Of a stretch of 64,000 bases of DNA, positions 10,860 through 11,510 are shown piece by piece. The translations under genes and the position numbers were made by a program. The first letter of the stretch is position 1, and each line of letters starts with the position of its first letter. Below the pieces are notes generated by a model. The model searched no databases. It was not told where the DNA came from and saw only the letters and a program-made list of their open reading frames with translations. This DNA comes from the human T2T-CHM13v2.0 reference genome, Homo sapiens, in assembly GCF_009914755.1 (NCBI RefSeq), contig NC_060931.1. One strand, written 5' to 3'.

Positions 10860-11510
10860 ATCCTGTAAAAACACACTGTATGATTCAGCTAATATGAAGT
10901 ATTTAGTCAAACTCATGGAGACAGAAAGTAGAGGGGTAGAAGGGTGGGGACACAGGAATGAGGAGTTGTTTAACACGTGAAATGTTTCCATTGAGGTGGA
11001 TTGTTAAGCCAATGACAGAATTTAAACCACAGACTTACTTTGATAGTACTCTTAATGGTATAATTTCTTCTCCCATTTTATGTCTCTCTTTATGTTTTTT
11101 CTTATGTTTCCTTTTTGTTTTCAAGAGAGAGCTATCTTTTAGATCTCCAGTATCCTTTTCCTCTTCAGTAGAGATTTCTATATCTTGAAATAAATAAAAA
11201 AGCACTCCGTTAAGACGTGGGGCTGTGAAATGGGTGAAATCCCAAAGACTCTTTCAATTCATCTGTGATTAACATTTTTGGGAAGTAACTCCTATTATAA
11301 ATTAAAAGTAATATTAGAGTTTTTCACAATCAGAATGTCAATAAATTTTTAACTTAAAAAAAATGTTTCCATTGAGGAAGATGCAAGGGTTCTGGAGTTG
11401 GATGGTGTGATGGTTGCACAGCACTGTGAATGTGCTTGATGCCACTGAACGGTGCATGTAGAAATGGTTAAAATGACATATTTTATGTTACCTGTATTGG
11501 CAACAATAGA
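10860..11510 (+). mobile_element. Old L1M(B-type) 3' end, split by the retrocopy
   Basis: ctgtatgattc...gagacagaaagtag, resuming after the TSD with gttctggagttggatggt...gaaatggttaaaatg. Confidence 0.7.
10997..11360 (+). pseudogene. L1-mediated retrocopy of a LARP7-antisense transcript (3' part of the miR-302/367 host RNA)
   Basis: 17-bp TSD AAATGTTTCCATTGAGG (10980-10996, 11361-11377); AATAAA 11340-11345 then A-tail; minus strand 11039-11183 encodes [49 protein letters not shown] (LARP7-like) between intact ag| and |gtaagt. Confidence 0.85.

What the first reader, a model, noticed from the sequence alone, without database searches (positions are those of the whole stretch)
10980..11377. Retrotransposed copy of the miR-302/367 host RNA whose 5' end appears to be the Drosha cut of miR-367
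Seen: a 364-bp insert with a 17-bp TSD, AATAAA and a short A-tail on +, splitting an old L1. Its minus strand holds a 145-nt LARP7-like exon ([49 protein letters not shown]) with both intronic flanks, so the template was an antisense RNA rather than LARP7 mRNA. Known: the pluripotency-specific miR-302/367 cluster is transcribed antisense within LARP7, and miR-367 is the last hairpin. Recall: the pre-mir-367 entry ends ...AGCAAUGGUGA|UGG, where | marks the end of mature miR-367-3p. The insert starts exactly TGGATTGTTAAGCC, with no microhomology to the TSD. Inference: this is a full-length cDNA of the uncapped, polyadenylated 3' Microprocessor by-product. It would be a genomic fossil of Drosha cleavage and a sign of heritable L1 activity in pluripotent or germ-line cells. 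I do not know of a described class of such retrocopies.
Basis: partly seen in the sequence, partly recalled or inferred. Interest (0 to 1): 0.92.

Follow-up and report, generated by a model that had tools for sequence, protein, structure and literature searches.

The report
Retrocopy starting at a Drosha cut
A small L1-made DNA copy in a PILRA intron was templated by the leftover RNA piece that Drosha leaves after cutting out miR-367, and similar copies from the same and from a second stem-cell microRNA cluster suggest this is a repeated, so far unlisted kind of retrocopy.

Summary
Window 10997-11360 is a 364-bp insert between perfect 17-bp target-site duplications, with AATAAA and a 3-6 A tail. 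It matches the minus strand of the LARP7 / miR-302-367 locus on chr4 at 97.8% (353 of 361). Its first base is the base that follows annotated miR-367-3p, and there is no overlap with the duplication. It is not a colinear full-length copy. 791 nt are missing inside, and the gap has no splice signals (CA..TT).

Two old chr4-derived copies (chr3, chr12; 72-80%) start within 3 nt of the same site and keep the intron. The only two copies that carry the upstream host exon (chr6, chr16) are spliced and already published (Pan and Lin 2020).

A second locus shows the same pattern. A chr11 retrocopy (93%, 10-bp duplication, A-rich tail) starts at the base after miR-373-3p and ends at that cluster's poly(A) site. 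Four other clusters gave no such copy.

In both pri-miRNA folds the start lies about 10-15 nt inside the would-be stem, where Drosha cuts. A polymerase blocked by the hairpin would be expected to stop further out.

Verdict: L1 retrocopies of polyadenylated 3' Microprocessor by-products. This is a new variant of a known kind. Confidence 0.8.

The parts
10980..10996 (+). Left target-site duplication (17 bp)
   Evidence: Identical to 11361-11377.
10997..11239 (+). Block A of the insert. It copies the 243 nt of MIR302CHG intron that lie immediately 3' of the miR-367 hairpin cut.
   Evidence: 98.35% to C4:115955974-115956216 minus strand. The first base is L002:1743, directly after the ...GGUGA end of miR-367-3p.
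11039..11183 (-). Antisense copy of a 145-nt LARP7 coding exon, with parts of both flanking LARP7 introns on either side
   Evidence: The open frame at 11035-11253 (minus) contains the quoted peptide. The exon borders are read. The parent locus is LARP7.
11239..11240 (+). Internal junction where 791 nt of the parent are missing (C4:115955183-115955973)
   Evidence: The missing piece begins CAGAAG and ends CACATT on the RNA strand, so it is not GT-AG, GC-AG or AT-AC on either strand. There is no microhomology. No long-range helix is predicted between the end points.
11240..11357 (+). Block B of the insert. It copies the last 118 nt of the host gene's terminal exon (E3), from its nt 129 to the poly(A) site.
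   Evidence: 96.6% to C4:115955065-115955182 minus strand. The start of E3 is placed at about C4:115955310 from where the chr6 and chr16 copies begin.
11340..11345 (+). AATAAA poly(A) signal, 12 nt before the last templated base
   Evidence: The same signal lies before the tails of the chr6 copy, and in degraded form of the chr12 copy.
11358..11360 (+). Untemplated A tail (3 A, or up to 6 if the AAA of the duplication is counted)
   Evidence: Parent reads TTATATTG after ...AACTTAA.
11361..11377 (+). Right target-site duplication (17 bp)
10867..10979 (+). Left flank: old dispersed repeat that the insert interrupts. That it resembles an L1 3' end is recalled, not tested.
   Evidence: 40 scored genomic matches including the query's own place, the others at 71-85%. 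Of the 5 other copies aligned, 2 (L036, L037) are contiguous across the insertion point.
11378..11530 (+). Right flank: continuation of the same repeat
   Evidence: In L036 and L037 the right flank aligns directly after the left flank.

Best explanation
The insert is an L1-made retrocopy whose template was the 3' by-product of Microprocessor cleavage of the pri-miR-302/367 transcript (MIR302CHG, antisense inside LARP7).

Proposed steps:
1. Pol II transcribes the host gene in pluripotent or germ-line cells.
2. Drosha/DGCR8 crops the last hairpin, miR-367, out of the host intron.
3. The downstream piece starts with the base after miR-367-3p. It has lost the 5' splice site and so keeps its intron sequence. 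It is cleaved and polyadenylated at the host gene's AATAAA site.
4. A molecule that escapes 5'-3' decay is taken by L1 ORF2p. It is reverse-transcribed from its poly(A) tail to its very 5' end at a nick in chr7, inside an old repeat in a PILRA intron. This gives a 17-bp duplication.
5. 791 internal nt were skipped, either by a template jump of the reverse transcriptase or by a later deletion.

Shown: the parent, the strand, the exact 5' base, the poly(A) site, the duplication, recurrence at this locus, and the same pattern at miR-373.

Inferred: that Drosha made the end, that the RNA was uncapped, the cell type, and the cause of the internal gap.
For: 1. Exact start at the base after annotated miR-367-3p, with an unambiguous junction.

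2. Retrocopy hallmarks. There is a 17 of 17 duplication, AATAAA and an A tail. Homology to chr4 stops at the duplications. The flanks are contiguous in 2 of the 5 other copies of the host repeat that were aligned.

3. Recurrence at this locus. Five genomic copies derive from the antisense RNA.
- Three start at the cut: chr7 exactly, chr3 and chr12 within 3 nt.
- All three keep intron sequence.
- The two that contain the upstream exon, chr6 and chr16, are spliced. They are T2S5 and T1S1 of Pan and Lin.

4. No hairpin sequence in the old copies. Upstream of the start, chr3 and chr12 match the conserved miR-367 3' arm at 10 of 30 and 7 of 30 positions. Their alignment scores are -3 and -2, against a null of -5.4 +/- 3.3. 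The 62 nt downstream score 28 and 20.

5. Independence of the old copies. chr3 and chr12 are no closer to each other (78% and 69%) than to the parent (80% and 72-74%), and they share no flanks.

6. Second locus. The chr11 copy has a 10-bp duplication and a degenerate A tail, and is 372 of 399 identical to the parent. It starts at L044:1567, the base after miR-373-3p, whose 23-mer is given in PMC11084695 Table 4. It ends just after AATAAA.

7. Position within the fold. In both pri-miRNA folds the stem continues about 10-15 nt below the start. That is where Drosha cuts, not where a blocked polymerase would stop.

8. L1 reverse transcriptase can cross such hairpins. Four independent retrocopies contain the whole mir-302a hairpin (PMC7692494, Results).

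9. The cluster lies antisense in LARP7 intron 8, inside an intron of a polyadenylated lncRNA host (PMC8159989, passages; PDB match).
Against: - No RNA data were available. The 3' fragment itself, its 5' phosphate and its poly(A) tail were not observed.
- The annotated 3p end stands in for the Drosha cut. Trimming or tailing can shift mature ends by a base.
- The copy is not colinear. A 791-nt gap without splice signals, microhomology or a predicted bridging helix is unexplained.
- The A tail is very short (3-6 A).
- The nick sites (ATTT/C for chr7, CATT/G for chr11) match the L1 TTTT/A preference only loosely.
- chr3 and chr12 share TCA where the parent has TGG. They also share two indels against the parent. 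They may therefore share some history, and their starts are only resolved to about 3 nt. chr3 has lost its 3' end, and neither has a convincing duplication.
- Four of six clusters tested gave nothing.
- The search tool misses old short pieces. It did not find the mir-302a-like exon that Pan and Lin report in the chr16 copy.
Confidence: 0.8

Rival explanations
1. The template was the uncut pri-miRNA. The L1 reverse transcriptase stopped or fell off when it met the stable miR-367 hairpin (or the miR-373 hairpin), so the shared 5' end marks a structural block and not a cleavage.
For: Both hairpins fold strongly: -49.8 and -60.4 kcal/mol, z -4.1 and -3.8. A structural block would also recur at the same place in independent events.
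Against: The starts lie 10-15 nt inside the predicted stems and exactly at the annotated 3p ends. A block would be expected at or outside the stem foot. Four independent published retrocopies run through the whole mir-302a hairpin (PMC7692494). L1 also copies highly structured Alu RNA (established knowledge).
Confidence: 0.08
2. The 5' end is made by another event at or next to this base. Candidates are a different endonuclease, an exonuclease pausing at a bound protein, or an internal transcription start.
For: No RNA or enzyme data were available here. The chr3 and chr12 starts are only resolved to about 3 nt.
Against: Two unrelated hairpins, mir-367 and mir-373, give starts exactly one base after the annotated 3p end. 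The geometry, roughly 11-15 nt above the basal junction, is that of Microprocessor (the ruler itself is established knowledge).
Confidence: 0.07
3. Ordinary random 5' truncation of a retrocopy of the unspliced host transcript. The coincidence with the miR-367 end is chance.
For: Most L1-made copies are 5' truncated (established knowledge).
Against: One exact base out of more than 1,900 possible in the unspliced transcript is about 0.05% (my estimate, not a tool result). The pattern then repeats at chr3 and chr12 within 3 nt, and exactly at an unrelated locus on chr11.
Confidence: 0.03
4. DNA-level duplication or gene conversion of a piece of the LARP7 locus, with no RNA intermediate.
For: The copy contains intron sequence and no canonical splice junction.
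Against: Homology stops exactly at a 17-bp duplication. The 3' end is an A run 12 nt after AATAAA, at the site also used by the published chr6 retrocopy. The flanks are an unrelated repeat that is contiguous in 2 of the 5 other copies aligned.
Confidence: 0.01

Closest known systems
MIR302CHG retrocopies T1 (E1-E302-E3) and T2 (E1-E3) of Pan and Lin 2020 (PMC7692494). In human these are T1S1 in IQCK (chr16) and T2S5 between CNKSR3 and SCAF8 (chr6).
   Same: Same parental gene and strand, the same terminal exon and poly(A) site, L1 hallmarks, and the same proposed setting in pluripotent cells.
   Different: Those copies start with exon E1 and are spliced across the miRNA-bearing intron. The chr7, chr3 and chr12 copies lack E1, start inside that intron at the miR-367 cut and keep intron sequence. 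The paper's Table S2 has no rows for human chr7, chr3 or chr12. Its PDF and alignment supplements could not be read.
mir-373 and mir-498 precursor retrocopies (Pan and Lin 2020)
   Same: [quoted passage not shown] One of the parents, mir-373, is also the parent of the chr11 copy found here.
   Different: Those copies consist of the hairpin itself with poly(A) attached directly to it, and the mir-373 ones are marmoset-specific. The copies here contain no hairpin. They are the downstream by-product running to the gene's own poly(A) site.
Ordinary processed pseudogenes (L1-made retrocopies of capped, spliced mRNAs or lncRNAs)
   Same: Target-primed reverse transcription from a poly(A) tail, target-site duplication, dead on arrival.
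   Different: The template is an uncapped RNA-processing fragment that retains intron sequence. The 5' end is set by an endonuclease rather than by a transcription start or random truncation.
snoRNA-derived retrocopies (snoRTs) and U6-L1 chimeric retrocopies (recalled, not read here)
   Same: These are retrocopies whose ends reflect RNA-processing ends. The chimeras show template switching by L1 reverse transcriptase, which is one possible cause of the 791-nt internal gap.
   Different: The RNA classes and end-forming enzymes differ. No second template is involved here, since both blocks come from the same transcript in the right order.

Membership tests
L1-mediated retrocopy (target-primed reverse transcription in trans) | Target-site duplication flanking the insert | tested here: met
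   17 of 17 identical, at 10980-10996 and 11361-11377.
L1-mediated retrocopy (target-primed reverse transcription in trans) | 3' A tail following a poly(A) signal of the parental transcript | tested here: met
   AATAAA at 11340-11345, last templated base 11357, then 3-6 A. The tail is short. The chr6 copy ends 3 nt away.
L1-mediated retrocopy (target-primed reverse transcription in trans) | Homology to a distant parental locus that ends at the duplications, with an insertion site that is contiguous elsewhere | tested here: met
   The site is contiguous in 2 of the 5 other repeat copies aligned (L036, L037).
L1-mediated retrocopy (target-primed reverse transcription in trans) | Nick site resembling TTTT/A on the bottom strand | tested here: inconclusive
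   Read as ATTT/C. This is a loose match, and the position is ambiguous within the A run.
L1-mediated retrocopy (target-primed reverse transcription in trans) | Introns removed | tested here: not met
   Block A is intron sequence. The internal gap has CA..TT ends, not splice sites. This is expected for a fragment that has lost its 5' splice site.
3' Microprocessor (Drosha/DGCR8) cleavage by-product as template | The 5' end is the base after the annotated 3p miRNA end | tested here: met
   mir-367. mir-373 and chr11.
3' Microprocessor (Drosha/DGCR8) cleavage by-product as template | The cut lies about one helical turn above the basal junction of the pri-miRNA stem | tested here: met
   Predicted folds continue about 10-15 nt below the start. 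These are predictions only.
3' Microprocessor (Drosha/DGCR8) cleavage by-product as template | Independent events share the same 5' end | tested here: met
   chr3 and chr12 start within 3 nt of it. Their full independence is not proven, because they share TCA and two indels.
3' Microprocessor (Drosha/DGCR8) cleavage by-product as template | The RNA has a 5' monophosphate and its end depends on DROSHA/DGCR8 | not testable with these tools
   Needs RNA end mapping in wild-type and knock-out cells.
Published MIR302CHG retrocopy types T1/T2 (Pan and Lin 2020) | Contains exon E1 joined to E3 (or to E302) by a canonical splice | tested here: not met
   There is no E1 homology in the chr7 insert. The 1184 nt upstream of the cut match only the chr6 copy elsewhere.
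Published MIR302CHG retrocopy types T1/T2 (Pan and Lin 2020) | Ends at the E3 poly(A) site | tested here: met
miRNA-precursor retrocopies (mir-373 / mir-498 type) | The insert is the hairpin itself with poly(A) attached | tested here: not met
   Rfam at gathering threshold finds no miRNA family in L001, the chr7 locus.

The most novel reading that the evidence does not exclude
Polyadenylated 3' leftovers of Drosha cropping are a recurrent template for L1.

At least four fixed human insertions fit this pattern. Three come from miR-302/367 and one from miR-371-373, the two classic pluripotency clusters. Each begins at the Drosha cut of the last hairpin, two exactly and two within 3 nt.

They would be nucleotide-resolution genomic fossils of Microprocessor cleavage, spanning from roughly ten to perhaps a hundred million years. 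They would show that these by-products can escape decay and reach the L1 machinery in cells that contribute to the germ line. Some of them are currently filed as LARP7 pseudogenes.
Probability: 0.75. Interest if true: 0.8.

Novelty: new variant of a known kind. Interest (0 to 1): 0.75.

Why it matters
The fate of the flanking pieces left by Drosha is usually taken to be rapid decay. A heritable DNA copy that starts at the cut shows three things. The 3' piece can be polyadenylated. It can persist. It can meet L1 ORF2p in pluripotent or germ-line cells.

Such copies record ancestral Drosha cut sites and host-gene poly(A) sites at single-base resolution. They add an independent marker of when and where L1 was active. 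They also explain antisense, intron-bearing 'LARP7 pseudogene' fragments that ordinary pseudogene logic cannot.

The idea is directly testable by a genome-wide scan and by RNA end mapping in DROSHA or DGCR8 mutant stem cells.

For PILRA itself nothing functional is shown. The insert sits in an intron in the sense orientation and carries AATAAA motifs, but I have no evidence that they are used.

Tried and rejected
- Splicing as the cause of the internal junction. Rejected: the missing 791 nt start CA and end TT (AA..TG on the other strand), and no shift of the junction is possible.
- Structure-mediated skipping. The MFE fold and pair probabilities of the 1152-nt fragment show no contact above 0.05 between the two end points. 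The cause of the gap stays open.
- LARP7 mRNA pseudogene. Rejected: the poly(A) signal and tail are on the strand antisense to LARP7, and both LARP7 intron flanks are present.
- chr3 and chr12 as duplicates of each other. Not supported: they share no flanks and are no more alike than each is to the parent. Shared TCA and indels leave some doubt.
- 3' end and duplication of the old copies. The chr3 3' end was not found within a further 14 kb. chr12 shows only a weak 8 of 9 candidate duplication lying 14 nt upstream of the homology start (read). I do not rely on it.
- PDB search with the 72-aa antisense frame of the insert: no hit. LARP7 identity was shown with the neighbouring RRM exon of the parent instead.
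- Naming the flanking repeat as L1. No long reading frames lie upstream, only Alu-like frames, and no repeat library was available. The name is left as a recollection.
- Other clusters. The flanks downstream of miR-92a-1, miR-363, miR-25 and miR-141 match only themselves or Alu elements.
- Literature. Searches, which combined Drosha, retrotransposition, retrocopies, processed pseudogene, Microprocessor, pri-miRNA and XRN2, found no paper describing retrocopies of the 3' cleavage product. Only Pan and Lin 2020 is close. This covers the open-access library only.

Full report
**What is in the window**

AAATGTTTCCATTGAGG occurs twice, at 10980-10996 and 11361-11377, identical over 17 bases. Between the two copies lies a 364-bp insert, 10997-11360. 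Near its right end is AATAAA (11340-11345). The last base shared with the parent is 11357, and a short A run follows. Three A are certainly untemplated, and three more are shared with the start of the duplication.

The left flank matches a dispersed repeat. There were 40 scored places including the query's own, the others at 71-85% identity. I aligned both flanks to the 5 other copies that were returned as loci. In two, L036 and L037, both flanks align next to each other, so the insert interrupts a pre-existing repeat. In L033 and L035 the right flank found nothing, and in L034 it gave only a weak 33-nt hit about 600 nt away. I recall this repeat as an L1 3' end but could not test the name. 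Upstream there are only Alu-like frames.

**The parent**

A search of the window's own genome places the insert on the minus strand of chr4 in two blocks (re-aligned).
- Positions 1-243 match C4:115955974-115956216 at 98.35%.
- Positions 244-361 match C4:115955065-115955182 at 96.6%.
- Together that is 353 of 361 bases, or 97.8%.

Rfam finds mir-367 (100 bits) and four mir-302 hairpins immediately upstream on the same strand. The plus strand of the locus encodes LARP7 residues 130-184, 100% identical to PDB 4wkr_A. A paper states that the cluster lies antisense in LARP7 intron 8, inside an intron of a polyadenylated non-coding host gene with two poly(A) signals (PMC8159989, passages).

The 145-nt exon is 11039-11183, with both LARP7 intron flanks. 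The template was therefore an RNA antisense to LARP7.

**The 5' end**

The mir-367 match ends at L002:1741 with ...GGUGAUGG. The first base of the insert aligns to L002:1743, the U directly after ...GGUGA. miR-367-3p is printed as a 22-mer ending ...GGUGA in PMC7816280 (Methods passages).

The junction cannot be shifted. The duplication ends in G where the parent has A. The base after the right-hand duplication is A where the insert has T.

In the predicted fold of the pri-miRNA the stem continues for about 15 nt below this point, through UGG:CCA, UGU:ACA and AGCCAA:UUGGCU. The start thus lies inside the would-be stem, roughly one helical turn above its foot. That is where Microprocessor cuts, according to established knowledge.

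**The copy is not colinear**

Between insert positions 243 and 244, 791 nt of the parent are missing. On the RNA strand the missing piece begins CAGAAG and ends CACATT. That is no known splice-site pair on either strand, and the two edges share no bases. A fold of the 1152-nt fragment predicts no helix bringing the edges together.

I cannot tell a template jump by the reverse transcriptase from a later deletion. Primate orthologues would decide.

**Host-gene structure and the other copies**

Searching the genome with the whole 1152 nt from the cut to the poly(A) site, and with the 1184 nt upstream of the cut, gave five copies derived from the antisense RNA.

- The chr6 copy joins a 69-nt upstream exon (C4:115956969-115957037) to the terminal exon (starting at about C4:115955310) and ends in an A run 3 nt beyond the chr7 end. 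It is T2S5-Human of Pan and Lin 2020.
- The chr16 copy in IQCK is their T1S1-Human (PMC7692494: Results and Discussion read, Table S2 searched).

These two define the intron that holds all five hairpins and block A of the chr7 insert.

- The chr3 and chr12 copies are old, at 72-80% identity, and colinear with the genome through that intron. chr12 keeps a degraded AATAAA-like signal and an A run at the same 3' site. chr3 has lost its 3' end.
- The homology of both to the parent, and to each other, begins at T-CA-ATTG, opposite the parental T-GG-ATTG.
- Upstream of that point they match the highly conserved miR-367 3' arm at 10 of 30 and 7 of 30 positions. Their scores of -3 and -2 lie within the null of -5.4 +/- 3.3. 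The next 62 nt score 28 and 20.
- They share no flanks. They are no more alike (78% and 69%) than each is to the parent (80% and 72-74%).
- They do share TCA and two indels against the parent, so some common history cannot be excluded.

A sixth place, on chr8, matches only the LARP7 RRM exon at 75%. I did not follow it up.

The pattern is coherent. Three of three copies that start at the cut retain intron sequence, as a fragment without a 5' splice site must. Two of two copies that carry the upstream exon are spliced.

**A second locus**

I located mir-371, mir-372 and mir-373 on chr19 and searched the genome with the flank downstream of mir-373. Apart from Alu matches there was one hit: C11:1015719-1016121 at 92%.

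- It starts at L044:1567.
- Rfam places mir-373 at L044:1501-1569, ending ...GGGGUGUCCC.
- miR-373-3p is given as the 23-mer that ends at L044:1566 in PMC11084695, Table 4, which is described there as identical to the miRBase mature sequence.
- The chr11 copy therefore begins with the first base after miR-373-3p.
- It is flanked by AATGAAGCTA on both sides and is 372 of 399 identical to the parent, with 7 gap columns.
- It ends a few bases after AATAAA in a degenerate A-rich tail.
- The fold again continues about 10-13 nt below the start.

The same test on the last hairpins of four other clusters found no copy: miR-17~92, miR-106a~363, miR-106b~25 and miR-200c~141. Two of six clusters are positive, and both are the pluripotency-specific ones. 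The search tool scores only the best candidates and misses old short pieces. It did not report the mir-302a-like exon that Pan and Lin describe in the chr16 copy.

**Explanation and rivals**

The simplest account is that L1 copied the polyadenylated 3' by-product of Drosha cropping of the last hairpin, all the way to its 5' end.

- Chance truncation would need an exact base out of roughly two thousand at two loci, plus two near hits. This figure is my estimate.
- A polymerase blocked by the intact hairpin should stop at or outside the stem foot, not 10-15 nt inside it. Four published retrocopies also run through the whole mir-302a hairpin.
- A DNA duplication is excluded by the duplications, the tails and the limits of homology.

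What is not shown: the RNA itself, its 5' phosphate, its dependence on Drosha, and the cell type.

Ages are rough inferences from identity and a recalled neutral rate of about 0.1% per million years per lineage. On that basis the chr7 copy is 10-20 million years old, the chr11 copy about 30-35, and the chr3 and chr12 copies many tens to about a hundred.

**Comparison with what is known**

Retrocopies of MIR302CHG are published, and the same paper proposes Drosha-made 5' ends for hairpin-only retrocopies of mir-373 and mir-498 (PMC7692494).

The copies described here are different objects. They contain no hairpin and no upstream exon, they retain intron sequence, and they run from the cut to the gene's own poly(A) site. 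The paper's Table S2 has no human chr7, chr3 or chr12 rows. Its PDF and alignment supplements could not be read.

Full-text searches found no other description. LARP7P4 is named at 3q24 in one paper's appendix (PMC10842541) and is probably the chr3 copy. I could not verify this.

I therefore rate the finding as a new variant of a known kind, and an interesting one.

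Noticed in passing
L046 1501-1903 (C11:1015719-1016121), parent L044 1567-1968 (C19:56868242-56868643): A retrocopy of the miR-371-373 primary transcript. 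It starts at the base after miR-373-3p and ends at the cluster's poly(A) site. It has a 10-bp duplication (AATGAAGCTA) and is 93% identical to the parent.
   Followed up: yes
C3:148278484-148279398 (L011/L016) and C12:43697137-43698255 (L012/L006/L018): Two ancient unspliced copies of the stretch from the miR-367 cut towards the host poly(A) site. The chr12 copy has an Alu inserted and keeps an A run at the 3' site. The chr3 copy has lost its 3' end. The chr3 copy may be what is named LARP7P4 at 3q24 (PMC10842541 appendix).
   Followed up: partly
C8:130325059-130325223 (L022): A 165-nt match at 75% to the LARP7 RRM exon only. It is possibly a LARP7 mRNA pseudogene. Its strand relation and limits were not examined.
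   Followed up: no
window 10525-10866: An Alu with a long A tail inserted into the same old repeat just left of the finding. It is flanked by AGACAATCCTG on both sides (about 10517-10527 and 10856-10866).
   Followed up: no
window 11640-11770: A GGAA/GAAA-rich microsatellite about 270 nt right of the insert, about 200 nt before the PILRA exon at 11965.
   Followed up: no
window 10997-11360: The insert lies in a PILRA intron in the sense orientation. It carries two AATAAA-type motifs (about 11191-11200 and 11340-11345). There is no evidence that PILRA transcripts end there.
   Followed up: no
C3:69871775-69871809 and C19:21755987-21756021: Two 35-nt matches (94-97%) to the T-rich tract just before the host gene's terminal-exon acceptor. 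They are probably low-complexity chance hits.
   Followed up: no
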